DNA from: an uncultured Rhodospirillaceae bacterium
Lineage (GTDB): Bacteria > Pseudomonadota > Alphaproteobacteria > JAEULC01
Assembly (NCBI GenBank): GCA_964393375.1
Contig: CAYMTM010000001.1
Coordinates: 258-64,257 of the forward strand
Length of the DNA stretch: 64,000 nucleotides
Direction: 5' to 3'
Part shown: one piece after another, positions 7,307 through 64,000 of the stretch
How the letters are laid out: each line of letters starts with the position of its first letter
How positions within the stretch are numbered: the stretch's first letter is position 1
Position numbers and translations under genes: made by a program
Notes under the pieces: generated by a model
Told to the model about the DNA's origin: nothing
The model's input: the letters and a program-made list of their open reading frames with translations, nothing else
The model's database searches: none

Positions 7307-7376
7307 CCGCAGGGCGCCGGGACGCGGCCGAGTGCCGCCCAGCGGCGCCCGATCCGGGGCGGGAACGGAGACCCAC

Positions 7377-9989
7377 GTGATCCCCCGAATCCTTCATTAT
7401 GTCTGGGTCGGCGGTCGGCCGCTGCCGGAGAAATCCAGGATCAATATCGAGACCTGGAAGCGGTTCTGCCCGGATTTCGAGATCCGGGCCTGGACCGACG
7501 ACAACGTCGCCTTCGACCGGCCATACCTGGCGCGCTGCCGGGCGCTCGGCCACTGGGCCAACGCGTCGAACTACTTGCGGCTGGAGAAGCTGCTGGAGCA
7601 CGGCGGAGTCTACCTGGACGTCGATATCATGATGCGCCGGACGTTGGCACCTATGCTGCGAAATCGCTGTTTCCTGGGATTCCAGGTCGAGGCCCAGGAG
7701 AACGACTGGGTCAACAATGCGGTCTTCGGCGCCGAGCCCGCCCACTGGTTCGTTGCGCTGTGCCGCGACCGCCTGCTGGCTGAATTCGACGGCGCCGAGC
7801 CGGCGAACCACTCCTCGCCCCGATTGGTGACAAGGCTCCTGCTCGAGCAAGGATTGACCCGCTATCGCCCGGGCGGCGTAATGGTGCGGGACGTCCGTGT
7901 CTATCCGCAGCCGGTATTCTATCCCTACTCGTGGAAGGAGGAGTTCACGCTGGGGGCGATCAGGCCGGAGACGGCGACGGTGCATTTCTGGGAGAAATCC
8001 TGGCACATTGATGCGGCTGCCCGACCGGTCGGCGACGAGGAATTGCGTGCGCGGCTGGCGAGGCTCGAGATCGCGCATCATCGCCTGATCCGCGACGCCG
8101 TGCTGGCGGTCGCGCCGCGGCCCGAGGGTCGGTGGTCGTGGGCGGGACTTCGCTATTGGTTCCAGCGCCTGGGCCGTCCCCGCCGGCACGCGGTCAGGCC
8201 GCTGCTACTGGCGGGCGCGACGTCCTTGTGGGCGTTGCTTGCGTCGCCGGTTCTCGCGGCAGCCGCTTGCGGCCTTTCTTTCGACGATGCCGGCTTGCGC
8301 GCAGGCCCGGTGGTAACCGGCGGGGCGACGGTCAGGCGGGTGGGGTGCGCATCCGACGCCGCCTCTACCCATCATTGTATCGCCATCGTGCTGGAAAGCG
8401 GCGATCGTGCGTCCGTGGCGCGCTTTACCGCCGCCGCCCCGCGGCCGTACCGGCTTTGGCTGCGGGTAGGCACCGATGCGCGGTCGGGCAAGATGCGGCT
8501 GGGACTCAACGACGGCCCGGTGCGCGACTGGTTCGTTCCGCCGACGCAGGCCGGTAACTGGCAGCTTGTTACGCTGCCGGACGGTAGGACGCCCGCGATG
8601 TTCGATCTCAAACCGGGCGAGAACAGCCTGCGTATCGAGCCGCCGACCGATGGCAGGACCGTCGCGGCGGCGGATTGCGCCGTATTGTCGGCCGACCCGC
8701 ATTTCATCCCCACCTTCACGGCCGTGCACGAGCTCGACCGCGCCTGGTCGGGCGTCGGCGTGCTGTTCGACGCCTTGGCCGACGAGCGCAACGTCTATGT
8801 CGGCTATTACAATGCCGAGCGGATGCTGTCGGCGGCATCGTTCGATCGCGACACCAGATCGTGGCGCCGCGTGCCGCTGGCCAGCCGGTTCGAGGGCTGG
8901 GACAACCACAACGCCATCGCTCTGGCGCTCGACAAGGCGGGCAATCTGCATGTCGCCGGCAACATGCATGCCTCGCCGCTGGTCTATGCCCGCACGGCCG
9001 AGCCGCGCCGCCTGGAAACGTTGCAGCTGCTCAACCGCATGGTCGGGTCGGACGAGGCCAGGACGACCTATCCGACCTGGGTGGCGATGCCCGATGGCGG
9101 CTTGGCCTTCATCTATCGCTCGGGCGTTAGCGGGACAGGGCAGCACGTCATCGACGTCCTGGTCGACGGCCAGTGGCGCCGGCAAGGCGACGCGGCGCTG
9201 TTCGGCCAGGCTTCCGGCGGCTTCAGCGCCTATCCGACCGATCCGCTGCGCGGACCGGATGGCCGGCTGCACATGGCCTGGGTTTGGCGGCGGACGTCGG
9301 AGGCGCAGACGACCTTCCAGGTTTCCTATGCGCGCAGCCGGGACTTGGTTCACTGGGAAGACGCGGCCGGCAAGCCGCTCCAGTTGCCGCTGCGGCCGGG
9401 GCCGATGGGCGTGGTCGACAACGTGCCGGAGCGGGCGGGCCTGGCCAACCAGGTGGTCCTTGGGTTCGACGCCGAGGGCCGGCCGATCGTCTCCTACCTG
9501 AAGTTCGACGCCAAGGGCGCGACACAGCTCTACAACGCGCGGCCGACGGCCGCGGGGTCCTGGCAGATCGTCCAGACCAGCGACTGGCAGGACCGTTGGG
9601 AATTCGAAGGCCGCGGCACGATCCAGGCGCTGGTCCGCCTCGAGGCGGCGGCAGTGGACGATGCCGGGGCGCTGGTCCAGGGGGTGCGGCACTGGCGCGC
9701 CGGTCGGTTCGAGTTCGTGCTCGATCCCGGAACGCTGCGGCCCGTGGCGGCGCGTCCGCCCAAGCGCATGCTGCCCTGGGTGCTGACCCAGCCGAGCACG
9801 GACGAGCCCGGCTTCTTCGCGATTGCGATCCCGGTCCGCGACGCGCGGGCCGCCGGCAAGCCGACCGGCTTCGTCCTGCGCTGGGAGGCGCAGAACAGCG
9901 ACCGCGACGCAATGCCTGCCTGCACGCCGCAGCGCCCGCGCGCCTGCGACCCGCCGCCGTCGCTGTTGACGGTGTTGGAGAAACGATGA
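7377..9989 (+). CDS. glycosyltransferase (sugar-binding DXD-region family, GT32/Gly_transf_sug-like) fused via a TM segment to a C-terminal BNR_4-like beta-propeller domain
   Basis: GTG 7377 has SD GGAGA 7 nt upstream; ATG 7332 is an in-frame alternative. The N-terminus has ILHYVWVGG..P and YLDVDIMM (DXD), typical of the sugar-binding DXD GT family. A hydrophobic stretch LLAGATSLWALLASPVLAAAA follows at aa ~280-305. The C-terminal ~550 aa carries repeated His/Trp-rich blades (NLHVAGNMHASPLVY, RLHMAWVWRRT) resembling BNR_4-type propellers. The propeller assignment is tentative. Confidence 0.65.
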   Translation: MIPRILHYVWVGGRPLPEKSRINIETWKRFCPDFEIRAWTDDNVAFDRPYLARCRALGHWANASNYLRLEKLLEHGGVYLDVDIMMRRTLAPMLRNRCFLGFQVEAQENDWVNNAVFGAEPAHWFVALCRDRLLAEFDGAEPANHSSPRLVTRLLLEQGLTRYRPGGVMVRDVRVYPQPVFYPYSWKEEFTLGAIRPETATVHFWEKSWHIDAAARPVGDEELRARLARLEIAHHRLIRDAVLAVAPRPEGRWSWAGLRYWFQRLGRPRRHAVRPLLLAGATSLWALLASPVLAAAACGLSFDDAGLRAGPVVTGGATVRRVGCASDAASTHHCIAIVLESGDRASVARFTAAAPRPYRLWLRVGTDARSGKMRLGLNDGPVRDWFVPPTQAGNWQLVTLPDGRTPAMFDLKPGENSLRIEPPTDGRTVAAADCAVLSADPHFIPTFTAVHELDRAWSGVGVLFDALADERNVYVGYYNAERMLSAASFDRDTRSWRRVPLASRFEGWDNHNAIALALDKAGNLHVAGNMHASPLVYARTAEPRRLETLQLLNRMVGSDEARTTYPTWVAMPDGGLAFIYRSGVSGTGQHVIDVLVDGQWRRQGDAALFGQASGGFSAYPTDPLRGPDGRLHMAWVWRRTSEAQTTFQVSYARSRDLVHWEDAAGKPLQLPLRPGPMGVVDNVPERAGLANQVVLGFDAEGRPIVSYLKFDAKGATQLYNARPTAAGSWQIVQTSDWQDRWEFEGRGTIQALVRLEAAAVDDAGALVQGVRHWRAGRFEFVLDPGTLRPVAARPPKRMLPWVLTQPSTDEPGFFAIAIPVRDARAAGKPTGFVLRWEAQNSDRDAMPACTPQRPRACDPPPSLLTVLEKR

Positions 9990-36780: not shown

Positions 36781-39700
36781 CTACCCGAATACGAACTGTT
36801 GTGCGGCGAGTTGGGCGATGGTGGTGTTCTGGAGGAGGATGGAATTGTTGGCGTCGAAGGCGATGGTGACGCCGGCGGCGCTCTGGGACATGTGGGCCTG
36901 GAGTTGGGCGAAGGTGGAGATGCCGTAGAGGTTGGCGTCGTTGAGCAGGATGGTGTCGCCCTGGGATGGGGTGAAGTCGGCGATGGTGTCGCGGCCGCCC
37001 GAGAACTCCCAGACGAACTGGTCGGCGCCCGCCCCGCCGGTCAAGGTGTCGTTGCCCATGCCGCCGGTGAGGAAGTCGTTGCCGTTGCCGCCCTGCAGGA
37101 TGTCGTTGCCCGAGTTGCCGTAGAGGTAGTCGTTGCCGTCGTCGCCCTGGACCAGGTCGTCGCCGGCGCCGCCGAACAAGAGGTCGATGCCGCCGCCGCC
37201 GGCGATGGTGTTGTTGGCGGTGCCGCCGTAGACCAGCTCGTTCTTGGCGCTGCCGGTGTAGTTGGCGCCGGCGCCGGTCTGGACCAGGATGTCGCCGCTG
37301 TCGAGGTAGCTGCCGTCGGCGAGCTTGGGCGTGACGTTCCACAGCGGGTTGTCCTCGAACGACCCCTTGGCGAGGTTGAAGGTCTGGGCGATGACGTAGC
37401 CGTAGGCCTCGACCGCCTGGGCCGAGCCGGTGGCGCTGACCAGCGTGGCCATGGCGGCGCGGGCCTGGGCGGCGTAGCCGCCGGACCAGTCGGGATAGCC
37501 CTCCATGGTCATGGTGGCGGAGGCGGTGGCGGGGTCGTAGCCGGAGGCCTGGTAGGCCTCGGCCCAGGTGTCGAGATAGTTGCCCTGGGCGTCGCGGATG
37601 GCGAGGTTATAGGTCGGGCCGGCGGCGGGGTTGTAGCCGAGCTCGCCGCTGGTGAACCGCCCGGCGGAGAAGTTCTCCATCCAGGCCAAGAGCGTGCCGG
37701 CGTCGGCGTAGCCGCGGCTGTAGGCCTCGCCGAGCACGGTGATCAGGTAGTCCTGCTGCCAGGGGGCCATGATCGTGCCGCTGCCGTCGCCGTAGTAGGA
37801 ATCGATCCAGCCCTCGAGCTGGCCGGCGGCGTCGTTCCTGCCGCCGGTGACGTAGGTCTGGACCAGGTAGGCGAGGTTGGATTTGACCAGCCCGTCGAAG
37901 TAGGCCTTCATCGGATCGCCGTTGGGGGTGATGTAGGCGGCGTCCATCAGGTCGCGCAGGGTCCAGGCCAGCGCGCGCAGCTGCTCGGCGCCCGGCGACA
38001 TCACCCCGCCGCCCTCGGTGTAGTAGGGGTCGCGCATGGCGATCTCGGTGGCGGCCTGGGCCTGCAGCTCGTCGAGATAGTAGTGGCTGCCGGTGAAGAG
38101 ATAGGGCAGGTAGCTGAGCGCCGGCGGGTGGGCCAGGTCCGGCGTCCAGCCGGCCAGGCTGGCGCCGCTGGGATAGTCCGGGATGCTGCCGGCGCCGGTC
38201 CCGCGCGAGTCGATCCACAGGTTGGGGTGCTGGTCGACGCGTACCGGGTTAGAGGTCGCCTCGTCGGTGTAGTGCCAGGGCACCGCCCCGGCGGCGTCGG
38301 CCTGGGCCAGCATGACGTCGAGCGCGCGGGCGTCCTGGGTCAACAGATAGCGCGCATACCATTCCGGGATCGGGCCGATATCCGGCCGGCCGCCGGTCTG
38401 CGGCATGTACTGCAGCACGAAGGCCGCGCCCAGCGGGCCGGTGTCGGCCGCCGCCAGCGCGGCGTAGTCGCCCGCCACCGCGGCCGCGTCGACCCCCTGG
38501 GCGGTGTCGAGCGCCGGCACCGCGCCGGTCTTGATCAGGTAGTCGACGTCGCGCTGCACGTTGATCGAAGGCTCGCCCTTCAGCCACGCCTCGACGTGCC
38601 AGGTCGAATTGGCGTGGTGGAACATGTTGGCTTCGCTGTAGACCACCGTGGCGCCCTGCTTGACCGCCACGTCGTAGGTGAAGGAGTTGATGCCGGGCGT
38701 GAAGGTCGAATCGTTGGCCAGGATCACGTCGGTCATGACGTTGCCGTCGGCCGTCACGCGGATGTCGAAGATCGCCTTCAGGCCCGTCGTCAGCGTGGTC
38801 TGGACGCGGAACTCCGAGGCCTGGCTGCCGCTCATCCAGGTCTCGACCGTGCCGTTGGCGATCGAGCTCTGCAGCAGCTGGGCGACGTTGACCGACTTCA
38901 GGGTGGTGGTGCCGTTGGCGTTGTGCAGGTTGACGTCGAGCGTCACGTTGAGGCCCTTGGCGATCGCGTCCTGCGCGGTCAGGACGGCGCCGCCCGCGGC
39001 CGCCGCGTGCTTCAGCATCACGTCGACCTCGCCGTTGCCGGCCAGCGCCGGCGCCTGCAGGGTCAGGATCGCGTGGCGCACCGAGCCGTCGGCGTTGAGC
39101 GCCTTGACGTCGATCTGCACCGGCACCGAAACGCCGTTGATCGCCGCCACCAGCCCGGTCCCCGGCATCAGGTCGCCGGCTTTGAACACCTGCCCGAACG
39201 AGACGATCGCCGCCGCCTGGGCCGAAGCCGAGGTGTTCTGCAGGGTCATGCCCACCAGATCGCCCGCCGCGCTCGCCGCCGGCACGTCCGGCACCGCGAT
39301 CAGCCCCGTCGTGCTGCCCCCCGTGGAGCCGCCCGTGGAGCCGCCGGTGGAGCCGCCCGTGGAGCCGCCCGTGGAGCCGCCCGTGGACCCGCCGGTGGTG
39401 GTCCCGCCATTGGTCAGGTCGATCACCCGGTCGGCGAACCTGGCGTACTCCACCGAAACCAGGTGGTCGCTGCCCTCGGCCAGCCCGGCGCCGGCGGTGC
39501 CGGTGATCTGCCACGACCCGTCGGCCAGCTTCGCCACCGTGTAGTCGGCGTAGTTGCCCTGGAACACCGCCGTGTCGCTGCCCGTGCCGCCGTCCAGCCA
39601 GTCGTTGCCGCCCCCGCCTTTCAGCGTGTCGTCGCCCGCCATCCCCAGCAGCGTGTCGCCCCCCGACCCGCCGGTGATCGTGTCGTGCCAGCCCGCCCCC

Positions 39701-42700
39701 TGCAGCGCCGAAATCCCCGTCAGCTTGGTGGCGGAGAAGTCCAGCACGCTGCCTTCCCACGACCCCACCACCGTGACGTTGGCATAGCCGCCCGCCGAGA
39801 CCTCCTCGATCCCGCTCGCGGGCGCGAAGTTGCGCAACTGGATCGTCGTGCCGGCCTGCGTCGCCAGGATGATGTCGTAGCCCGCCGTCCCGGTGTCGAC
39901 GATCGTGTCGATGCCGTCGGCGGTACCCCCCACCAGGTAGGTGTCGCTGCCCTGGCCGCCGTCCATCGTGTCGTCGCCGCCGCCGCCGCGGATCACGTCG
40001 TTGCCGGCCCCGCCCCAGATCGTGTCGTGCCAGCCCCCGCCGTTGATCGCCACGATCCCCGTCAAGGTCGTGTTGCGGAAGTCCAGCACGCTGCCGCTCC
40101 ACCAGCCCTGGATCGTCACGTTGGCGTAGCCGTTGGCGGTGATCTCCTCGATCCCGCTCGCGCTCTTGAGCCCGATCGCCGTGCCGGCCTGCGTCGCCGC
40201 GATCCGGTCGAAGCCGGAGGTGCCCGTATCGGCGATCGTGTCGTAGCCGTCCCCGGTGCCCCCCACCAGGTATATGTCGCTGCCCTGGCCCCCGTTCAGC
40301 GTGTCGTCGCCGCCCGCCCCGCGGATCACGTCGTTGCCCGCGGTCCCGTTCAGCACCTCGCCCGAAGCCGTGCCCACGATCGTCGGCGTGTACGTCACCG
40401 TCCCCGCCGAAACCGGGTCCACCACCACGCTCAAGCTTGCCGTCGCCGTCGCCGTCGCGCCCCCGTTCGACTCCGTCGACGTCGCCCTGACCGTCAGCAC
40501 GAAATCCGCGTCCGAGTTCGCCGGCGGCGTGATCTTCAGCCCCGACAACTGCGAAGCCGTCAGCAGCCACGTCCCGTTGCCCTGGTTCGTCCCCGCCGAA
40601 AGCGTCGCCCCCGCCGGAACCCCGGAAATCGTCACCGACAGGCTCTCCGAACCGTCCAGGTCCGTCAGCGCCGCCGAAATGTTCAACCCAATCGCCGTGT
40701 TCACCAGGCCCTGCGCCGGCGAAACCGACAGCGTCGGCATCGACGCCGTCGTGTCGACCGCCGGCAGCGTCACCGGCAGGATCGCCGTGGTCGTCGCCGT
40801 AGATCCGCCGGTCGCCTCCGTCGACTTCGCCGTCACCGTCAGGCTGAAGCTGCTGGAGTTCGCCGGGGGCGTGATGGTCAGGCCGGAAAGCTGGGCCGGC
40901 GTCAGCAGCCACGTGCCGCCGCCCTGGTTGGTCCCCGCCGACAGCGTCGCCCCGGTCGGCACTCCGGCGATCGTGATGGACAGTGACTCCGACCCGTCCG
41001 TGTCGGTCAATGCCGCCGCTATGTTGAGCGGCACCGCCCCGGAGCCCGATCCCGACGCCGGCGACAGGGTCAGGCTCGGCGCGTCGGCCACCGCCGCGAC
41101 CGTCACCGGCAGGCTTGCCGTCGTCGTCGCCTTGGCCCCGCCGTTCGATTCGGTGGACGTGGCCGTCACCGTCAGCGCGAAGTCTGCGTCCGAATTGGCC
41201 TTCGGCGTGATCGTCAGGCCGGAAAGCTGCGCCGGGGTCAGCAGCCACGTGCCGCTGCCCAGGTTGGTGCCGGCCGACAACGTGGCGCCGGCCGGAACGC
41301 CGCTGATCGCGATCGACAGCGTCTCCGACCCGTCGAGATCCGTCAGCGCCGCCGCGATGTTCAGCGCGATCGGCTTGTCCTCCTGGCCAGAGGCGGCCGA
41401 AACGCTGAGCGTCGGCTTCGACGCGGTGATGTCGCCCGACAATCCGCCCGAGGCGAGCTGGCTGACCGCGATCGTGGTGTCGGCGAAGCTGATGAAACTG
41501 ATACCCTGCAGCAGGTCGGTACCGTCGCCGCCCACGTTGTCGCGCACCGTCACGTTGCCGTTGGCCGCAAGGGTCACGGAATAGTTCGCCGCGGCGCCCC
41601 TGAAGACGGCCGTATCGACGCCGCCGCCGCCGATCATCGTGTCGTTGCCGCCGCCGCCGGAAAGGGTATCGTTGCCGGCATTGCCCCTCAGCGTGTTGGC
41701 CAGCGCGTTGCCGGTCAGCGATGCGCCCGTGGTAAGACCGATATTGCCCCACTCGACGTTCGCCGCCAGCGTATAGGCCTGGATGAACGTGCCGACGCCG
41801 TCGTTTCCGCCGCCGGCCGCCTCGATCACCACATCGTTGGCGCTGTAGATGCCGTAGATGTCGTCCCCGGCGCCGCCGATCAGCGTGTCGCCGCCGCCCA
41901 TGCCGAGCAGCACGTTGTTGCCCGCGTTGCCGACCAGCGTCTCGCCGCCACCAGCCGTGCCCCATCCGGTCAGATTGCCGGTGCCCCCGAGTTCGAGGAT
42001 CTCCACGTTCGCCGCGATGGTCGTGTTATCGACGAACGTAATCATGCGGTCGGCCGTGCCCTGGCCCGCCGCCTCGATCACCACGTCGCCGGATTGGTCG
42101 ATATAGTAGGTGTCGTTGCCGGCACCTCCCGACATCGCGTCGGCGCCGGCGCCGCCGTTCAGGACGTTGTCGCCGCTGTTCCCGTAGAGCGTATCGTTGC
42201 CGGCGCTGCCGGCGCCCGCCAGGTTGCCGCTGCCGGTCAGCCGCAGCACCTCGACATTGGCGGAAAGCGTGTAGCTGACGCTGGAATAGATCGTGTCGAT
42301 GCCTTCGCCGGCGTTCTCGGCCACCACGTCGCCGGACGAATCGACGAAATAAGTATCGTCCCCGGCCCCGCCGATCATCGTGTCGTTGCCGGCGCCGCCC
42401 GTCAGCGTATCGTTGCCGGCATTGCCCCTCAGCGTGTTGGCCAGCGCGTTGCCGGTCAGCGATGCGCCCGTGGTAAGACCGATATTGCCCCACTCGACGT
42501 TCGCCGCCAGCGTATAGGCCTGGATGAACGTGCCGACGCCGTCGTTTCCGCCGCCGGCCGCCTCGATCACCACATCGTTGGCGCTGTAGATGCCGTAGAT
42601 GTCGTCCCCGGCGCCGCCGATCAGCGTGTCGCCGCCGCCCATGCCGAGCAGCACGTTGTTGCCCGCGTTGCCGATCAGCGTCTCGCCGCCGCCGGCCGTG

Positions 42701-44418
42701 CCCCAGGCAAGATTGTTGCCGGTGCCGCCGAGCTCGAGGGCTTCCACGTTCGCAGTTAGGTAGTTGTTGAACGCGAAGCCGATGATCTTGTCGGCCGTTC
42801 CCCCGCCGGCCTGCTCGATCACCACGTCGCCGGAATCGTCCACATAGTACGTGTCGTTCCCGGCGCCGCCGATCATCGTGTCGGCGCCCTCGCCGCCGTC
42901 CAAGATATTGTCGCCGCTATTGCCCACGAGGACATTGACGCCGGCATTGCCGGTGCCGGTCAGGTTGCCGCTGCCCGTCAGCTCGAGCCGCTCGATGTCG
43001 GGCGACAGCGTATAGCTGACGCTCGCGCGAACCGTGTCGTAGCCCGCGCCCGGCTGCTCGGCCACGATGTCGCCGGCCGAATCCACGACATACACGTCGT
43101 CGCCGGCACCGCCGGCCATCGAATCGCTGCCGGCGCCGCCGTCCAGCGTGTCGTTGCCGGCATTGCCATAGAGCGTGTTGTTAAGCGAATTGCCGGTCAG
43201 CGTGGCTCCGGCGGTAAGGCCGATAGAACCGAGCTCGACATTGGCCGCTAGAGTGTAAGACTGCAGATAGGTCGCAACCCAATCTGTACCGCCCCCCGCC
43301 GCCTCGGTGACGACATCGCTGGCGTCATCGACCAGGTAAATGTCGTTGCCGGCGCCGCCGATCATTACGTCCGCGCCGCCCATGCCGAGCAGCACGTTGT
43401 TACCCGCGTTGCCGATCAGCGTATCGTTGCCGGCACCGCCCCAGGCGGTCAGGTTGCCGCTCCCGCCGAGTTCGAGAATCTCGACGTTCGCCGCGATCGT
43501 CGTATTGTCGAGCGTGGTTACGATCCGGTCGGCCGTCCCCTGGCCCGACGCCTCGACGACAACGTCGCCCGCGTTGTCGACGTAATAGGTGTCGTTACCG
43601 AGACCGCCGACCATCAGGTCCGCCCCGGCGCGGCCGTCAAGGATATTGTTGCCGCTGTTGCCGTAAAGCGTGTCGTTGCCCGCGGTCCCGGTCGCCATCA
43701 GATCACCGGTCCCCGTGAGTTGCAGCACTTCCACATTGGCAGCCAGCGAGTAGTCGACGCTGGCCAGTACCCGATCAAGCCCATCACCCGGATTCTCTAC
43801 CACCACATCGCCGGTTGAGTCGACGACATAGGTATCATCGCCGGCCCCGCCTGCGGTTGTGTCATTTCCGAGGCCGCCGTCCAGCGTGTCGTTGCCGGCA
43901 TTGCCGTAAAGCGTGTTGGCGAGCCCATTGCCATCGAGGCGAGCGCCGGTGGCAAGCCCGATGGAGCCCAGCTCGACATTGGCCGCCAATGCATAACTCT
44001 GCAGATAGGATGCCACCCAGTCGGTGCCGCCCCCCGCCGCCTCGGTGATGAGATCGCCCGAGTTATCCACAACATAAATGTCGTTGCCGGCTCCGCCGAT
44101 CATGACGTCTGCGCCGGCTCCGCCGATCAATACATTGTTGCCGGCATTGCCAATAAGCGTGTCGGTGCCGGCGCTACCCCAGGCAGTGCCGTTGCCGGAG
44201 CCGCCAAGCTCGAGGATCTCGACGTTCGCCGCGATCGTTGTGTTGGCAACGGTCGACACCATGCGGTCCGCCGTACCCTGGCCCGCCAACTCGACCACCA
44301 CGTCGCCCGCGTCGTCGACGATGTAGGTATCGTTCCCGGCGCCGCCGGCCAGATAGTCCGGGCCCGCCCCGCCATCCAGGGTATCGGTGCCCGTCGTGCC
44401 GAATAAGGTGGTGTTCAA
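36781..44418 (-). CDS. 2545-aa secreted RTX (hemolysin-type calcium-binding repeat) protein with Ig-like repeats and a large central putative polysaccharide-lyase/glycanase-like domain; probable type I secretion substrate
   Basis: TTG start with SD GAGGAT 6 nt upstream.
- aa 1-~1000: dense GGxGxDxUx nonapeptide blocks organised as four or more tandem ~247-aa modules.
- aa ~1000-1400: three ~105-aa repeats (..[48 protein letters not shown]..).
- Then two ~110-aa RTX-containing modules.
- (GGST)7 linker.
- ~680-aa Trp/Tyr-rich non-repeat domain.
- C-terminal RTX block, ending ..QQFVFG. Confidence 0.85.
39325..39410. repeat. tandem 12-nt repeat (ggagccgcccgt)x7 encoding a (GGST)n linker inside the RTX gene
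   Basis: The repeat is seen directly in sequence 39325-39410. It translates on the minus strand as [12 protein letters not shown]... Confidence 0.8.
41640..41970. repeat. internal direct repeat copy A (~270-bp perfect core) of a ~741-bp module in the RTX gene
   Basis: Sequence 41667-41937 is identical to 42408-42678 (tatcgttgccggcattgcccctcagcgtgttggccagcgcgttgccggtcagcgatgcgcccgtggtaagaccg...). Diverged copies of the same module occur near 43140 and 43880. Confidence 0.85.
42380..42710. repeat. internal direct repeat copy B of the same RTX module
   Basis: Offset of 741 bp (247 codons) from copy A. It is perfect over ~270 bp. Confidence 0.85.
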
Positions 44419-48416: not shown

Positions 48417-49847
48417 ATGAATCCTCGAACGGAGTCCGGGCGCCATGGGCGCCGATCGTCCAGCCGGCCTTGGGCCACCTGGTTGGGCGCGGTCGCGGTG
48501 GGCCTGTTCGCGGCAACGGCAACGCAGGCCCAGACCCTCGCCGACTGCGATGCGGCGATCACAGGGCTGCGCGCCGGCATGACCGCGACGCGGAACGAGG
48601 TCGGCCGCGCCGGGGCGCAAGGGCATTTGCGGGCGGCCGAGCGCGAGCACGAGGACCAAAACGTGGCGGCATGTCTTGCGGAGGTGACGGCAGGGACGGC
48701 GGCGCTGGGCGCTGGCGAATTCCAGCCCACCGTGACGGGCGTGCTGCATCTCGACCTGCAAAACGACTACACCTATCGTCGGCGCGGCGGCCGCGCCACG
48801 AACGACCTGCGTTCGGACAGCGAGTTCGAGATGGCGGTCAACCTGACGCCGTTCTTCTCGATCGTCTCGCTGCTGCACTCCGAGCCGGTGCGCGAGCCGC
48901 CGGACGGCGACCGGTTCCTGACCGACAACGCGCTGTGGTTGGAGGAGCTTTACGGCCGCTTCGACTGGCAGCGCGGCGGCATCCGCGTGGGCAAATTCAA
49001 CCCGGCCTTCGGCAAGGCCTGGGACGAGCATGTTGCGCCCGGCATCTATGGCCGCTTCTTCGCCGAGGACAGCTACAAGCTGACCGAAGGAATGGGCTTC
49101 AACCCCTATCTGCGCTTCGACGGCGGACCGGCCGGCAAGGTGACCGCGGGCGCCAGCGTCTTCAAGTTCGACAACACCTGGCTCAGCAATTCGGCGTTCG
49201 TCAGCCCCCGCTTCGACGAGGATCGAACCGAGCGCGTGGGCCGCAACCGCGTCCGTTTTGGCGGCCCGGGCAACACGGCCTGGCCCACCTCGCTCGCGGC
49301 GACGGTCGAGGGCGAGAACCTGCTTGGCGTCGCCGGCCTCGGCTGGAACATCGGGGCCGAGCGTCTGGCGCGCGGGCGGGCGGCGGGCGACACCTCGCAA
49401 TACGGCGCCGTAGCCGGGCTCACCTATGACGGCCCGATCGCGCCGCTGTGGGACCTGAGGGCGGTGGCGGAAGTCGCCTATCTGCGCCGGTTCGAGGGTG
49501 CGCGGCACGACAACCTGGTTGCGACCGTTGGCGCCGAGGCGACCTACGACAAGACCTGGCGCTTCTTCGCCCACTACGCCCAGGCCCGACGGCAGAGCGA
49601 GCGTACCCTGACGAACCCCATCCAGGTCGAGGACGAGGACGGCAACCTGGTGGACGATGTCGAGCAGTTCGACCTGCGGGAGACCGCGATCGACCGAATC
49701 TACAGCGTGGGCGTCGGCTACAGCTTCGATTTCGGGCTGAACCTCGACCTGGCCTGGGTGCGCCGAACCGGCGACCGCGAGGCGCTGGTGCGCGACACGG
49801 CGCGCGACGGCATCGGATTTCGCGCGCATTACGCGTTTACGTTCTAA
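48417..49847 (+). CDS. putative outer-membrane beta-barrel protein, probably Zur-regulated
   Basis: 476 aa. N-terminal signal region (..WLGAVAVGLFAATATQAQT). Alternating amphipathic beta-strands. The C-terminus ..RAHYAFTF ends with an aromatic residue, typical of OMP barrels. It is preceded by a Zur-box-like palindrome. Confidence 0.5.
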   Translation: MNPRTESGRHGRRSSSRPWATWLGAVAVGLFAATATQAQTLADCDAAITGLRAGMTATRNEVGRAGAQGHLRAAEREHEDQNVAACLAEVTAGTAALGAGEFQPTVTGVLHLDLQNDYTYRRRGGRATNDLRSDSEFEMAVNLTPFFSIVSLLHSEPVREPPDGDRFLTDNALWLEELYGRFDWQRGGIRVGKFNPAFGKAWDEHVAPGIYGRFFAEDSYKLTEGMGFNPYLRFDGGPAGKVTAGASVFKFDNTWLSNSAFVSPRFDEDRTERVGRNRVRFGGPGNTAWPTSLAATVEGENLLGVAGLGWNIGAERLARGRAAGDTSQYGAVAGLTYDGPIAPLWDLRAVAEVAYLRRFEGARHDNLVATVGAEATYDKTWRFFAHYAQARRQSERTLTNPIQVEDEDGNLVDDVEQFDLRETAIDRIYSVGVGYSFDFGLNLDLAWVRRTGDREALVRDTARDGIGFRAHYAFTF

Positions 49848-58401: not shown

Positions 58402-59061
58402 ATGTTCAGGAAGATCGTCCTCGCCGCGTTCGTTTCCATCTTCGCCCTTGCCGCCGTCACCGGCACCGCCGAAGCGCGGCCCGGCGGCGTGCTCGGCGGC
58501 GGGCATGGGCCCGGCGCGCTGGCCGGCGGCCCAGGCGGGCATGGCGGCGGCAGGATTGGCGGCGGGCCCTTGGCCAACGGGCCGCAGGAAGTCGGGCCCT
58601 CGGGAAAGCTCGGCAAGAAGCAGGGCGGGCCGCTGGCGCAGCGCCAGGGCCAGGGCAGCGGCCCGGCCAATCAACTCGCCAATACCCAAACGTCCCCCGC
58701 CGCCGTGACGAACAACGCGGCGAACACGGCGAGCGGAACCGCGACCGGCACCTATGCCGGCGGCAACGCGGCGACCGTCAGCGGAAACACCGTCAGCGGC
58801 AACACGACCGCCAGCAACAACCAGGTCAGCGTCTACGGCAACCAGGCTGCGGCCACCGGCACGGCGTATCCCTACCCGTACCCGTCGTACCCGTCGCTCG
58901 TGGTGGCGCCGACCGCCGGCACGTCGACCAGTTCCTCTTCGGGCACGACGACGACGTCCGCTGCGGCGCCCGCTCCCCAGTGCCCTGCCGGTACGTCGCT
59001 GCAGTCCGCGACCGTCAGCTCGACCGGCCAGACGACGATCGTCTGCGTGGCCGCGAAGTGA
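58402..59061 (+). CDS. secreted Gly/Ala/Thr-rich low-complexity protein
   Basis: Signal peptide MFRKIVLAAFVSIFALAAVTGTAEA, then GGxG and NT/SG repeats, with two Cys near the C-terminus. No family recognised. Confidence 0.45.
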   Translation: MFRKIVLAAFVSIFALAAVTGTAEARPGGVLGGGHGPGALAGGPGGHGGGRIGGGPLANGPQEVGPSGKLGKKQGGPLAQRQGQGSGPANQLANTQTSPAAVTNNAANTASGTATGTYAGGNAATVSGNTVSGNTTASNNQVSVYGNQAAATGTAYPYPYPSYPSLVVAPTAGTSTSSSSGTTTTSAAAPAPQCPAGTSLQSATVSSTGQTTIVCVAAK

Positions 59062-60549: not shown

Positions 60550-60895
60550 GTCGCGCTGTGGGCGCGAGGCGCCGCGCGCGTCCCGCCGGGCGGCACCGTC
60601 GACCAATCCGGTTGCTCCAATTGCGCCCCCGCAGGGGATTCCTCACGGGCTGGGACAAGCCGTCCGGCGATGATCGAGGCGCGCCAGGGCCGCGACGAGG
60701 CGGTTGAGCCGCGACCGTTGACAAAGTGGGCCGAAATCGCTTGTTATCAACACCTTAGAGCCAACGCTCGGGCTAGGCGGCGGCTCTTTGCCATTTCTTA
60801 ATGTGAGCCAAATCACGGGCTTGACCGCCGCACTGTGGTAGTCTGTCCGGCGTGAAATGTATTTCGCGCGGGCAACCGCGCGGGCGAGGTCGGCC

Positions 60896-63433
60896 ATGCG
60901 CACTCAGGGTTTGATACTATTGGCTGCAAGCCTGCTTGCCGCGGCTCCGGCCGACGCCCAGGTGGGCGTGCAGTTCGGCGGCGGCAGCCATCAGCGCGGC
61001 GGGGTGCTGTTCAACCCCGGCAAGGGCCGCGGCCAATTCCTGCTGGAGCCGACCCGGCCGTCGGACATGCGGCTGTGCGAGCAGGAGTACGGCCAGCGCG
61101 CGGTCGATGCCTGCTCCCAGGTCCTTGGCCGCGACCGCAACAACGCCAAGGCGCATCGGCTTCTGGCCGACGCGCTGCTGGCGACGGGCCGGCCGGACGT
61201 GGCGCTGGTCGAGTACAACGAGGCGCTGCGGCTCGATCCCGACATGGATGAAGCCAAGCGCGGCCGCGAGATGGCGCAGCGCTACCTGGCCGGCAGCCAG
61301 CCGCCGCCGTCGCCGCCAGCGCCCTACGTCGCGCAGCCCGCCCCGGTCCCGGCCTCGACGCCAACGCCTACGGTCGCCGCGGGCCCGCAGGACGGCGAAT
61401 GGTCGGGCCGGATGCTGCGCCAGTGCACCGGGTTCAGCGACGAGGGCGCATCTTCGGTGATGGTCTCGGGCAACCAGTTCTCGGGCGTGTTCTTCTCCGG
61501 CGGCGGCGGACGCGATCTGCGCGGCACGATCGCGCCGGACGGCACGGTCGAAGCCGCGGGCAAGGACACCGCGGGCAACCCCGTCGTCGTCAAGGGCAAG
61601 CTGCTCAGCGCGCAGACCCTGGTCGCCGAGGGCTACGCAGCCAATTGCAAGATGACGCTGGCGCTGGGCCGCGCCGGCGCGCCGGTGGCGCTGCCGTCCG
61701 CGACGGCCGCTTCCGCCGCGCCGCTTCCGGCATCCGCACGCGGCGGCTCGCCCTTCGATGGCGAGTGGTCGGGCACGCTGACCGGGCGCGCAGGCCACTT
61801 CCCGGTCACCGCCAACGTTGCCGACGGCAAGATGGTGATCCAGCAGGAACGCATGGGTTCGCGCATCGCGGCCCGCGGCGAGGTCGACGCCGGCGGCCAG
61901 GCGTCGCTGAGCGGGTCGGCCGGCGACGCCGCGACGCGCGGCGACAGCATGGAGATCAAGGGCACCTTCTCGGGCAACCTGTTCGTCGGCCAGGGCCGCG
62001 TCGGCGACAAATGGGCCGAGATGCGCCTGACGCGCGCCTCGCCGCCGCCCGCAGCACCGCAGGGCCCCGCGACGGCAGTGGCCCAGGCGGCGCCGCAGCC
62101 GGCGCCCCTGGCAGCCCCCAGTGCTCCACCCGCGCAGAGCCTGGCGGCGAACGCCGCGCCGATCGCCAGCCCGCAGGCCCCGGCGCCCGCGCCGACGGCT
62201 GCGCCCGCCACGAAGACCGCGGCGGCCGAACCGGCGCCGGCGCCAAAAACCTCCGCGGCGGAGCCCGCGCCGAAGCCGGCGCCGGCCGCGGCGCCCAAGA
62301 CCCAGACCGCCGCCACCACCGTCGCCCCCACGCCCGCGCCGATGGTCGACAAGCAGCCGCCGGCGATCACCGCCCCGGCGAAGCTCGAGACCGACGGGCC
62401 CGTGGTCGAATTGACCGGCAAGATCGCCGACGCCTCGGCCATCATCGAGTTCTCGGTCAACGGCCAGCCCGTGCCGATCGGCGCCGGCGGCGCGTTCAGC
62501 GTGAAGCGCGGCGTGCCGGTCGGCGCCAGCGAGCTGAAGCTCGCGGCGGTCGACGAATGGGGCAACATGTCCCAGAAGACGATCAGCGTGACCCGCCGCG
62601 CGCCACAGCCGACGACGCAGACCGCGACGGCGCCGACCGCCGACGAGCCCAAGGAAAAGCCGGTCCAGGTCGCCAGCATCGCCGACCAGCTGCGCAAGAT
62701 CGAGTTCGGCACCTACCGCGCGCTGGTGATCGGCAACAACAGGTACGCCAAGATCCGGTCGCTCGAGACCGCGCAGAACGACGCGCAGGTGGTCGGCAAG
62801 CTGCTGCGCGAGCAGTACGGGTTCCAGGTGACCACCCTGATGGACGCCACGCGCCAGCAGATCATGGAGGCGCTCTACAAGATGCGCGCCGAGCTGAGCG
62901 AGAAGGACAACCTGCTGGTCTACTACGCCGGCCACGGCGTGCGCGACGACCAGACCGGGCGCGGCTACTGGCTGCCCGTGGACGCCGATCCGGACCTGCC
63001 GACCAACTGGGTGCCGACGACCGACCTGACCGACGTGATCAAGGCGATGCGCGCGCGGCACATCATGGTGGTGGCCGACTCGTGCTACTCCGGCACGCTG
63101 GTGCGCAGCGTCACCGCCGGCATGCGCAGCGCCAAGGACGCGGACATCTCGGCCTGGGTTCGCCGGATCCTGGAGAAGCGCTCGCGCACCGTCATGAGCT
63201 CGGGCGGGCTCGAGCCGGTCATGGACGGCGGCGGCGGCGGCCACTCGGTGTTCGCCAAGGCCTTCATCGACGCGCTGCGCGAGAACCCGGACGTGATCGA
63301 CGGCCAGGGCCTGTTCGCCTCGATCCGCCGGCCGATCGTGCTCAACTCCGACCAGACCCCGGAATACTCCGACATCCGCCAGGCCGGGCACGACGGCGGC
63401 GACTTCCTGTTCGTCAAGCGCACGCCGAAATAG
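60896..63433 (+). CDS. secreted multidomain protein with C-terminal caspase (peptidase C14) domain
   Basis: ATG 60896 (MRTQGLILLAASLLAAAPADAQ signal).
- TPR-like segment (AKAHRLLADALLATGRPDVALVEYNEALRLDPD).
- Two homologous ~150-aa modules starting DGEWSGRM../DGEWSGTL..
- Long Ala/Pro-rich linker.
- Ig-like segment.
- Caspase core YRALVIGNNRY..YYAGHG..VVADSCYSG (His/Cys dyad). Confidence 0.75.
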   Translation: MRTQGLILLAASLLAAAPADAQVGVQFGGGSHQRGGVLFNPGKGRGQFLLEPTRPSDMRLCEQEYGQRAVDACSQVLGRDRNNAKAHRLLADALLATGRPDVALVEYNEALRLDPDMDEAKRGREMAQRYLAGSQPPPSPPAPYVAQPAPVPASTPTPTVAAGPQDGEWSGRMLRQCTGFSDEGASSVMVSGNQFSGVFFSGGGGRDLRGTIAPDGTVEAAGKDTAGNPVVVKGKLLSAQTLVAEGYAANCKMTLALGRAGAPVALPSATAASAAPLPASARGGSPFDGEWSGTLTGRAGHFPVTANVADGKMVIQQERMGSRIAARGEVDAGGQASLSGSAGDAATRGDSMEIKGTFSGNLFVGQGRVGDKWAEMRLTRASPPPAAPQGPATAVAQAAPQPAPLAAPSAPPAQSLAANAAPIASPQAPAPAPTAAPATKTAAAEPAPAPKTSAAEPAPKPAPAAAPKTQTAATTVAPTPAPMVDKQPPAITAPAKLETDGPVVELTGKIADASAIIEFSVNGQPVPIGAGGAFSVKRGVPVGASELKLAAVDEWGNMSQKTISVTRRAPQPTTQTATAPTADEPKEKPVQVASIADQLRKIEFGTYRALVIGNNRYAKIRSLETAQNDAQVVGKLLREQYGFQVTTLMDATRQQIMEALYKMRAELSEKDNLLVYYAGHGVRDDQTGRGYWLPVDADPDLPTNWVPTTDLTDVIKAMRARHIMVVADSCYSGTLVRSVTAGMRSAKDADISAWVRRILEKRSRTVMSSGGLEPVMDGGGGGHSVFAKAFIDALRENPDVIDGQGLFASIRRPIVLNSDQTPEYSDIRQAGHDGGDFLFVKRTPK

Positions 63434-63845: not shown

Positions 63846-63877
63846 AGCCGTCGCCCTTCGACGCTGCGCGACCGCCT

Positions 63878-64000
63878 CACGCCCAGAGGCGTTCCTTCTC
63901 CAGGCCCTTGTAGAGGTCGGCCACGTAGTCCGCGTAGCCGTTGAACAGCAGGGTCGGAATCTTTTCCTGCGTGCCGATGTCCGTCTCCATCGCCTGGCTC
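63878..64000 (-). CDS. 3' end of an unidentified CDS (continues beyond window)
   Basis: The minus-strand frame stays open to the window edge and ends ..IPTLLFNGYADYVADLYKGLEKERLWA* with a TGA at 63878-63880. There is too little sequence to name it. Confidence 0.35.

What the first reader, a model, noticed from the sequence alone, without database searches (positions are those of the whole stretch)
60896..63433. Secreted 858-aa caspase-domain protein with TPR, duplicated DGEWSG modules and long Pro/Ala linker
The protein has an intact His/Cys dyad (YYAGHG...ADSCYSG), so it is a probable active C14 peptidase. It also has a cleavable signal peptide, a TPR-like segment, two homologous ~150-aa modules each starting DGEWSG, and a ~130-aa APAP-type linker. 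This indicates a periplasmic or outer-surface orthocaspase. A small secreted 111-aa protein follows on the same strand. Exported bacterial caspase homologues with this architecture are largely uncharacterised and could act in envelope remodelling, programmed lysis, or processing of the neighbouring secreted proteins.
Basis: partly seen in the sequence, partly recalled or inferred. Interest (0 to 1): 0.5.

Follow-up and report, generated by a model that had tools for sequence, protein, structure and literature searches.

The report
Exported bacterial caspase with barrel modules
This gene encodes an exported, probably active caspase-family protease from an uncultured alphaproteobacterium. It is one more member of a surveyed but unstudied class, and its repeated "DGEWSG" modules are an uncatalogued small beta-barrel domain that also sits on the outer side of membrane cyclases.

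Summary
The interval 60896..63433 (+) encodes 845 aa; the 858-aa figure counts from an upstream ATG at 60857.

Domain order, N to C:
- Sec-type signal peptide
- Gly-rich stretch
- short TPR unit with a conserved Cys pair
- two homologous modules of about 99 aa (not about 150)
- 108-aa Pro/Ala spacer
- a complete C14 caspase domain

The catalytic His693 and Cys743 sit just after two beta strands, where clan CD enzymes carry them. The two acidic pocket residues of MALT1 and the metacaspases (Asp642, Asp741) are present, which predicts cleavage after Arg/Lys.

The same module recurs after signal peptides of small proteins, outside the membrane on class III cyclases, and with caspases in at least five other domain orders.

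A conserved 111-aa exported protein follows the gene in every relative examined.

Best reading: a periplasmic Arg/Lys-specific protease targeted or regulated by its binding modules. Its substrate and biological role are unknown.

The parts
60896..63433 (+). Gene for the exported multidomain C14 peptidase (845 aa from the likely start; an in-frame ATG at 60857 would give 858 aa)
   Evidence: ORF and GC3 of 0.93. Identical to the 845-aa database protein P0001. Homologues start at the equivalent Met. GAGG lies 6 nt upstream.
60896..60958 (+). Sec-type signal peptide MRTQGLILLAASLLAAAPADA, predicted cleavage before Gln35
   Evidence: n/h/c regions and A-x-A|Q are conserved in 10 of 10 full-length relatives. 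There is no twin-Arg motif and no lipobox Cys (sequence).
60959..61072 (+). Conserved Gly-rich segment (QVGVQFGGG...RGG..F), role unknown
   Evidence: Conserved in alignment A1; no family hit.
61073..61291 (+). TPR-like unit (about two repeats) carrying a conserved C-x11-C pair
   Evidence: Pfam TPR_19 scores 27.3 against a cutoff of 25, with other TPR models just below their cutoffs. Matches designed TPR proteins in the PDB at E 3e-6. Cys74 and Cys86 are invariant.
61382..61678 (+). Barrel module 1 (GPQDGEWSG...), 99 aa, with a conserved Cys pair (Cys190/Cys264)
61745..62041 (+). Barrel module 2 (SPFDGEWSG...), 99 aa, without the Cys pair; absent from some relatives
   Evidence: The L007 and L008 proteins (692 and 701 aa) lack it.
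62042..62365 (+). Pro/Ala-rich spacer, 108 aa
   Evidence: About 65% P+A; its length varies from 59 to 104 aa among homologues measured between fixed motifs; poorly conserved in sequence.
62366..62596 (+). Ig-like beta-sandwich domain immediately before the caspase domain
62702..63433 (+). C14 caspase/hemoglobinase-fold catalytic domain, including the stop codon
62933..62935 (+). Catalytic His693 codon
63083..63085 (+). Catalytic Cys743 codon
62780..62782 (+). Asp642 (helix alpha1), equivalent to MALT1 Asp365 and TbMCA2 Asp95 in the S1 pocket
   Evidence: Invariant in A5; aligned; lies in helix 140-155 of the model; residue roles from PMC4357240.
63077..63079 (+). Asp741, two residues before the catalytic Cys, equivalent to MALT1 Asp462 and TbMCA2 Asp211
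   Evidence: Invariant in A5; aligned; residue roles from PMC4357240.
63510..63845 (+). Conserved 111-aa exported protein (signal peptide plus about 87 aa with two invariant Cys), probably co-transcribed
   Evidence: Alignment A2. 51 relatives, all at least 59% identical and all unnamed. Directly downstream (6-85 nt) at all seven loci whose gene maps were read; L005 and L006 inferred from matching contig lengths. No terminator-like site between the two genes.
63849..63891 (.). Terminator-like hairpins after the small gene, between convergent genes
   Evidence: consensus scan only.

Best explanation
The gene encodes a Sec-exported, soluble periplasmic cysteine peptidase of family C14. It belongs to the metacaspase/paracaspase/orthocaspase branch, which cleaves after Arg or Lys.

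Shown here:
- the domain order
- an intact His-Cys dyad in the canonical structural positions
- two of the acidic S1-pocket residues
- a complete caspase fold
- signal-peptide features
- conserved Cys pairs
- an 8-stranded barrel fold for the DGEWSG modules

Inferred:
- After export, the TPR unit and the one or two barrel modules act as binding or sensing domains. They bring the catalytic Ig-caspase unit to a partner in the envelope, or gate its activity.
- The Pro/Ala spacer, which varies in length, lets the two halves work tens of nanometres apart.
- The disordered Arg/Lys-containing loop just after the catalytic Cys (residues 746-762) is a candidate self-processing site.
- The small exported protein encoded just downstream is the most likely specific partner, as substrate or regulator.

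The same barrel forms the extracytoplasmic part of membrane-anchored class III cyclases. Its general role is therefore most simply ligand or partner recognition outside the cytoplasm.
For: Family and catalysis:
- Pfam PF00656 well above cutoff.
- His, Cys, Asp642 and Asp741 are invariant across 15 diverse relatives and align to MALT1 His415, Cys464, Asp365 and Asp462. The S1 roles of those residues are described in PMC4357240.

Export:
- Signal-peptide features are conserved and Cys pairs are invariant.
- The module follows signal peptides in about 27 small proteins, and follows the single membrane helix of 7 cyclases.

Binding role of the modules:
- The module is fused to caspases in at least five other arrangements: P0025, P0071, P0067/P0085, P0026 and P0053.
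- A free-standing TPR-plus-module paralogue lies next to the caspase gene in L004 and L007.

Partner gene:
- The caspase gene and the small gene stay adjacent where the upstream genes (L007) or downstream genes (the 169-kb contig) differ.
Against: - No activity, localisation or expression data exist for this protein or for any close relative.
- The third S1 acid (MALT1 Glu500) has no clear equivalent. Only Asp790 or Glu786 lie nearby in the alignment.
- Both AF2 models rest on shallow alignments (9 and 15 sequences; pLDDT 74 and 77).
- The relatives that carry the small gene are all from one narrow lineage with broadly conserved gene order. Adjacency is therefore weak evidence of a functional link.
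- Other caspase-plus-module proteins (P0053, P0026) have no such neighbour.
- The ligand of the barrels is unknown.
- The signal peptide was judged by simple rules, not by a trained predictor.
Confidence: 0.6

Rival explanations
1. The protein is surface-displayed or released, not periplasmic. The TbpB-like barrels would act as an outer-membrane translocation signal, as in cargo of the type 11 (Slam) secretion system. The protease would then act on external proteins, for nutrient capture or antagonism.
For: The best structural matches of the modules are exactly the 8-stranded barrels of Slam/T11SS cargo: TbpB, LbpB, hemophilin, fHbp and HpuA. That barrel is reported to direct cargo to the T11SS outer-membrane protein (PMC12282271). 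Two of 14 module copies give a weak Pfam TbpB_B_D hit (E 0.02).
Against: - The barrels lie in the N-terminal half, not at the C-terminus.
- There is no lipobox.
- No DUF560 gene appears within about 8 kb in six related loci, nor among the 19 window proteins scanned.
- The same module forms the outer domain of inner-membrane cyclases, which are not secreted cargo.
- Sequence similarity to TbpB_B_D is below any threshold.
Confidence: 0.12
2. The caspase domain is not a hydrolytic endopeptidase. It would act as a transpeptidase or ligase, as legumain-type ligases and GPI transamidase do, or as a binding scaffold only.
Confidence: 0.05
3. It is a cytoplasmic conflict or cell-death caspase of the kind linked to NTPase or defence systems, and the hydrophobic N-terminus is not a signal peptide.
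For: NCBIfam caspase_w_EACC1 gives 86.7 bits, and the PADLOC 'caspase' model gives E 3e-11 over the first 130 of its 453 positions.
Against: The NCBIfam score is far below its cutoff of 140. The PADLOC match covers only the generic catalytic core. No NTPase, NACHT, SAVED, CHAT or other defence genes lie nearby. The neighbours are housekeeping genes (galU, speD, speE, ferritin, EF-G). The signal-peptide features, the Cys pairs and the extracytoplasmic context of the module all argue for export.
Confidence: 0.03

Closest known systems
MALT1 paracaspase (human; PDB 3V4O, 6F7I and others)
   Different: MALT1 is a eukaryotic cytosolic signalling protein with a death domain and a C-terminal Ig3 domain. 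The window protein has a signal peptide, no death domain, an Ig-like domain of a different Pfam family (PF09136), no clear equivalent of Glu500, and TPR plus barrel modules.
Bacterial orthocaspases and metacaspase-like C14 proteins (for example MaOC1 of Microcystis; GSU0716, PDB 3BIJ)
   Different: MaOC1, the orthocaspase shown to be proteolytically active (PMC6426788), comes from a cyanobacterium. My paper searches turned up no exported member that has been studied. The barrel modules are not among the Pfam domains listed in those surveys, because they have no Pfam model.
Eight-stranded soluble barrels of TbpB, LbpB, hemophilin, NHBA and fHbp (Pfam TbpB_B_D; T11SS/Slam cargo)
   Different: Sequence identity is 8-14%, and there is no significant sequence match. 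The modules are N-terminal or internal rather than C-terminal. No handle domain, lipid anchor or DUF560 partner was found.
Other caspase-plus-module proteins found here (P0019, P0025, P0026, P0053, P0067, P0071, P0085)
   Same: They carry the same barrel module together with a C14 domain. In P0019, P0026, P0053, P0067, P0071 and P0085 the caspase domain is of the same subfamily (E 1e-93 to 1e-180 against the family profile). All have signal peptides.
   Different: The domain order is permuted, with modules before or after the caspase. Module number ranges from 1 to 3. The TPR unit and the Ig-like domain may or may not be present. P0026 and P0053 have helical repeats instead, and where their neighbourhoods could be read there is no small partner gene.

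Membership tests
Peptidase family C14 (Pfam PF00656, clan CD) | Match to the family model above its curated cutoff | tested here: met
   82.2 bits against a cutoff of 21.4, residues 621-837, profile positions 3-223 of 233.
Peptidase family C14 (Pfam PF00656, clan CD) | His-Cys catalytic dyad at the C-terminal ends of strands beta3 and beta4 | tested here: met
   His693 follows model strand 185-192 and Cys743 follows strand 236-242. Both are invariant in A5 and aligned to MALT1 His415 and Cys464. The positional rule is from PMC4357240.
Peptidase family C14 (Pfam PF00656, clan CD) | Caspase/hemoglobinase fold | tested here: met
C14B branch (metacaspase, paracaspase, orthocaspase; P1 = Arg/Lys) | Acidic S1 pocket: an Asp on helix alpha1 and an Asp two residues before the catalytic Cys | tested here: met
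   Asp642 and Asp741 are invariant and align with MALT1 Asp365 and Asp462 (PMC4357240). The third acid (Glu500) has no clear equivalent.
C14B branch (metacaspase, paracaspase, orthocaspase; P1 = Arg/Lys) | Measured cleavage after Arg/Lys | not testable with these tools
   Requires an enzyme assay.
Paracaspase (as defined in PMC6426788) | A Pfam Ig, Ig_2 or Ig_3 domain before the p20 region; eukaryotic death-domain architecture | tested here: not met
   Pfam at E <= 0.1 lists only Glucodextran_B (PF09136) before the caspase domain. There is no PF00047, PF13895 or PF13927 hit and no death domain. This is a resemblance in layout only.
Metacaspase (p20 plus a p10 domain with a Ca-binding Asp) | Separate p10 model hit and conserved p10 Cys/Asp positions | not tested
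   The p10 HMM used in PMC6426788 was not available. The fold after Cys743 is complete, so the choice between 'orthocaspase' and 'type I-like metacaspase' is left open.
NCBIfam NF047832 (caspase, EACC1-associated type) | Score at or above the curated cutoff (140 bits) | tested here: not met
   86.7 bits. No conflict-system genes lie nearby.
Pfam TbpB_B_D / T11SS (Slam) cargo barrel | Sequence match to PF01298 | tested here: not met
   Best E 0.021, in 2 of 14 module copies. No PDB sequence match.
Pfam TbpB_B_D / T11SS (Slam) cargo barrel | Eight-stranded soluble barrel fold | tested here: met
Pfam TbpB_B_D / T11SS (Slam) cargo barrel | Barrel at the C-terminus and a DUF560 outer-membrane partner nearby | tested here: not met
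   The barrels are at residues 176-395 of 858. No DUF560 gene is called in the neighbourhoods or among the scanned window proteins. The whole genome was not available.
TPR repeat | Match to a TPR model above its cutoff | tested here: met
   TPR_19 scores 27.3 against a cutoff of 25. TPR_12, TPR_2 and TPR_16 fall just below theirs. Matches designed TPR proteins at E 3e-6. Only about two repeats are present.
Sec (SPase I) signal peptide | Basic n-region, hydrophobic core, small residues at -3 and -1 | tested here: met
   MR / LILLAASLLA (mean Kyte-Doolittle 2.8) / A-D-A|Q, conserved in all full-length relatives. This is a rule-based check only. SignalP was not available and cleavage is not shown.

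The most novel reading that the evidence does not exclude
The PFDGxWxG ('DGEWSG') 8-stranded barrel is an undescribed family of extracytoplasmic sensor or ligand-binding domains. Bacteria would have wired it repeatedly to two different outputs: a periplasmic caspase-type protease and, across the membrane, a class III nucleotide cyclase. On this reading the window protein is a ligand-gated periplasmic protease, a bacterial envelope counterpart of regulated caspase signalling, with the co-transcribed 111-aa protein as its dedicated substrate or inhibitor.
Probability: 0.25. Interest if true: 0.65.

Novelty: new variant of a known kind. Interest (0 to 1): 0.4.

Why it matters
Bacterial caspase homologues are abundant, especially in Alphaproteobacteria, and are usually discussed as cytoplasmic cell-death or defence enzymes. 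A sizeable exported subset has been noted in surveys, but my searches found none that has been studied. This locus is a clean example of one. It has an intact active site and a conserved partner gene, so it offers a direct target for enzymology.

The more useful by-product is the barrel module. It has no Pfam or NCBIfam model, yet it appears in about 50 clusters at 50% identity. Its partners (caspases, cyclases, and small secreted proteins on their own) point to a general role in recognition outside the cytoplasm. Defining it as a domain family would improve annotation of many hypothetical proteins. It would also give a testable route to what exported caspases respond to.

None of this is a mechanistic surprise yet. 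Without biochemistry the finding stays a well-described but functionally open member of a known class.

Tried and rejected
- A third homology search, using the module profile A3, returned only one fragment. The word index does not serve this short, divergent profile, so that search was wasted.
- The afdb50 fold library was not available. I could not get UniProt names or taxa for structural relatives of the module.
- Sequence searches of the PDB with the module profile and with the small-protein profile found nothing meaningful.
- Pfam and NCBIfam gave no family for the module, for the small protein or for the 219-aa upstream protein.
- The scan of representative genomes found only two MAG loci. 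The organism is known only as an uncultured Rhodospirillales/Alphaproteobacteria lineage, from the source names.
- The promoter scan found no sigma-70-like site, so operon structure rests on short gaps and the lack of a terminator-like site.
- PADLOC matched only a generic caspase core. I rejected a defence-system reading.
- I considered a functional link to the upstream speD-speE genes and rejected it. They are not adjacent in L007, whereas the caspase gene and the small gene stay together there.
- I checked a signal-peptide-bearing 476-aa protein with a C-terminal Phe (48417-49847) as a possible Slam-type partner. It has no DUF560 or any other Pfam match.
- Model coordinates are not exposed to the scripting tool. 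I could not measure residue-level superposition of the S1 pocket or the His-Cys distance.
Full report
**1. What is in the sequence**

A long ORF runs from 60857 to 63433 on the + strand. Its third-position GC is 0.93, as in the other real genes of this 67% GC window.

Counted from the first ATG it is 858 aa. The finding's own start coordinate, 60896, is the second Met (MRTQ...) and gives 845 aa. That start is the one used by the identical database protein P0001 and by every homologue, and GAGG lies 6 nt upstream of it. I use the 858-aa numbering below so that positions match the finding.

DGEWSG occurs at residues 179 and 301. YYAGHG carries His693 and ADSCYSG carries Cys743.

**2. Domain map**

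Pfam finds Peptidase_C14 at 621-837 (E 6e-23).

Coordinates checked by translation, in residues:

| Segment | Residues |
|---|---|
| Signal peptide | 14-34 |
| Gly-rich segment | 35-72 |
| TPR-like unit with invariant Cys74 and Cys86 | 73-145 |
| Pro-rich linker | 146-175 |
| Module 1, with invariant Cys190 and Cys264 | 176-274 |
| Linker | 275-296 |
| Module 2 | 297-395 |
| Pro/Ala spacer (108 aa, about 65% P+A) | 396-503 |
| Ig-like domain | 504-580 |
| Linker | 581-615 |
| Caspase domain | 616-858 |

The modules are about 99 aa each, not about 150. They are homologous to each other (28% identity, E 8e-5; joint alignment A3).

**3. Relatives**

The whole architecture is conserved at 59-81% identity in about nine database clusters. 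All come from metagenomes or MAGs labelled Rhodospirillales or Alphaproteobacteria.

The family is somewhat larger than that search showed. Two more members, found through the neighbouring gene, have only module 1 (L007, 692 aa; L008, 701 aa).

The spacer length ranges from 59 to 104 aa among homologues. That is expected of a linker with little sequence constraint.

**4. The catalytic domain**

I aligned the family with nine distant caspase proteins (A5). Only a handful of columns stay invariant, and they include G-H-G, D-x-C and the Asp of the N-D-A motif.

A profile of A5 hits MALT1 paracaspase best among solved structures (E 2e-23 across the whole domain). GSU0716 and the metacaspases come next. 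In that alignment:
- YYAGHG pairs with MALT1 YYAGHG (His415).
- D-x-C pairs with Asp462-Met-Cys464.
- N-D-A pairs with the Asp365 position.

The review PMC4357240 names Asp365, Asp462 and Glu500 of MALT1, and Asp95 and Asp211 of TbMCA2, as the residues that make the S1 pocket acidic and Arg-specific. It also states that the clan CD dyad sits at the C-terminal ends of beta3 and beta4.

Two caveats apply. I found no clear equivalent of Glu500, and I could not inspect coordinates.

The loop right after the catalytic Cys (residues 746-762) is predicted disordered and holds Arg750, Arg756 and Lys759. It corresponds in position to the loop caspases cut during activation. Self-processing there is only an inference.

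**5. Export**

No trained predictor was available, so I applied the classical rules. The window protein and all ten full-length relatives have one to three basic residues, then a hydrophobic core of at least 10 residues (mean Kyte-Doolittle 2.5-3.2), then A-x-A followed by Gln. There is no twin-arginine motif and no lipobox Cys.

Two independent lines agree. The TPR unit and module 1 each carry an invariant Cys pair, as disulfide-bonded periplasmic domains do. The module also occurs in plainly extracytoplasmic settings in other proteins (section 6).

**6. The DGEWSG modules**

Neither Pfam nor NCBIfam has a model for them. The only trace is a TbpB_B_D hit at E 0.02 for 2 of 14 copies.

A profile of the 14 copies, searched against 1.8 billion cluster representatives, found 75 proteins at E <= 0.001. 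I re-examined these with local HMMs. Fifty-four have a module covering at least 70 of the 99 profile positions, and they split as follows:

| Context | Number |
|---|---|
| Small proteins of 360 aa or less, usually with the module directly after a signal peptide | 27 |
| C14 caspases (10 of the 73 further hits carry a C14 domain; one has only a partial module) | 9 |
| Proteins with an N-terminal class III cyclase domain, most with one hydrophobic helix near residue 190-210, and one or two C-terminal modules | 7 |
| Other, several of them probably spurious repeat proteins | 11 |

The consensus is pFDG.W.G ... G.v..DG.v.l.G ... G.FsG..F.G, often with a Cys pair near the first and last strands.

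The caspase fusions come in several orders:
- modules, Ig, caspase (P0019)
- three modules, then caspase (P0025)
- two modules, then caspase (P0071)
- one module, then caspase (P0067, P0085)
- signal peptide, Ig, caspase, helical repeats, two modules (P0026)
- signal peptide, caspase, helical repeats, two modules (P0053)

In most of these the caspase domain belongs to the same subfamily as the window protein (E 1e-93 to 1e-180 against the family profile). The pairing of this barrel with an exported caspase is therefore recurrent and independent of domain order. That argues for a functional partnership between the two domains.

**7. Neighbourhood**

Upstream lie galU (-), a small low-complexity secreted protein, and speD and speE (+). 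Downstream lie the 111-aa gene (+), and then a molybdopterin oxidoreductase, ferritin and EF-G (-). This order is shared across the lineage, so most of it says little about function.

The exception is the small gene.
- It sits directly downstream, 6-85 nt away, at all seven loci whose gene maps I read. For L005 and L006 I infer the same from matching contig lengths.
- It stays there in L007, where speDE is not upstream, and on a 169-kb contig where an ABC transporter is inserted downstream.
- No terminator-like hairpin separates it from the caspase gene, and one follows it.
- Its product has a signal peptide, two invariant Cys and no known family.
- Caspase-plus-module proteins of other lineages lack it, so it is a lineage-specific partner at most.

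In L004 and L007 an extra gene just upstream of the caspase gene encodes a 250-aa secreted paralogue. It consists of the TPR unit (38% identity) plus one barrel of the module-2 type (34% identity). This shows that TPR plus barrel can work as a unit without the protease. The window has no such gene.

**8. Interpretation**

Firmly supported: this is an exported, multidomain C14 peptidase with a complete active site of the Arg/Lys-specific type.

Inferred: the TPR unit and the barrels are recognition or sensing domains, the Pro/Ala stretch is a flexible spacer, the Ig-caspase pair is the catalytic unit, and the small protein is a partner. I give the composite reading 0.6.

The main rival is surface display or release through a Slam/T11SS-like route. 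It is suggested by the fold match, and by the reported role of such barrels in directing cargo to that system (PMC12282271). Against it:
- the barrels are not C-terminal
- there is no lipid anchor
- no DUF560 gene was seen in any neighbourhood or among the window proteins scanned
- the same module decorates inner-membrane cyclases

A ligase or scaffold role, and a cytoplasmic conflict-system role, are both unlikely.

**9. Comparison with what is known**

Surveys have already reported that many prokaryotic caspase homologues carry TPR, WD40 or Sel1 repeats. They also report that dozens have a single N-terminal helix that may be a signal peptide, with extracellular localisation suggested (PMC3501461). 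Alphaproteobacteria hold 28% of bacterial orthocaspases (PMC6426788).

That later survey found no bacterial paracaspases, using Ig, Ig_2 and Ig_3 models. The window protein does have an Ig-like domain before its caspase domain, and MALT1 is its best solved match. However, the domain belongs to another Pfam family and there is no death domain. This is a resemblance in layout, not membership.

The protein is a new variant within a known and largely uncharacterised class. The new element is the barrel module and its wider distribution.

**10. Verdict**

Interest is moderate (0.4).

Noticed in passing
L004:6982-7737 and L007:2929-3681 (no counterpart in the window): A 250-aa secreted paralogue lies just upstream of the caspase gene in some relatives. 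It consists of the same Cys-bridged TPR unit plus one barrel of the module-2 type. In L007 and L008 the caspase protein itself has lost module 2. This looks like gene fission or fusion within the family.
   Followed up: partly
window 36781-44418 (-): A 2545-aa protein with 14 matched stretches of RTX calcium-binding repeats (HemolysinCabind, E 2e-129). It is probably a giant secreted adhesin or toxin-like protein.
   Followed up: no
window 3683-7306 (+) and 7332-9989 (+): A 1207-aa protein combines an N-terminal galectin-type lectin domain with GT2 and GT25 glycosyltransferase domains. It is followed by an 885-aa protein with a DXD sugar-transferase region and a BNR_4 domain. A galectin-like domain on a bacterial glycosyltransferase is unusual.
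   Followed up: no
window 58402-59061 (+): A 219-aa protein with a signal peptide and a Gly/Thr/Ala/Ser-rich low-complexity body, with no family match. It sits between galU and speD. A gene of 80-210 aa occupies the same place in L003, L004, L008 and the 169-kb contig.
   Followed up: no
window 48417-49847 (+): A 476-aa protein with a signal peptide and a C-terminal ...YAFTF motif typical of outer-membrane barrels. It has no Pfam match even at E 1. It is flanked by ZnuA and a CobW-family GTPase, so it may be an undescribed outer-membrane protein of a zinc-uptake cluster.
   Followed up: partly
window 60959-61072 (+): A conserved Gly-rich segment (QVGVQFGGG...RGG..F) lies directly after the signal-peptide cleavage site in all family members. 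It has no known motif or role.
   Followed up: no
P0028, P0035, P0039, P0043, P0046, P0054, P0076 (representative library): Class III adenylate/guanylate cyclases; most show one hydrophobic helix, followed by one or two of the same barrel modules on the outer side. This is an apparently undescribed sensor-cyclase architecture.
   Followed up: partly
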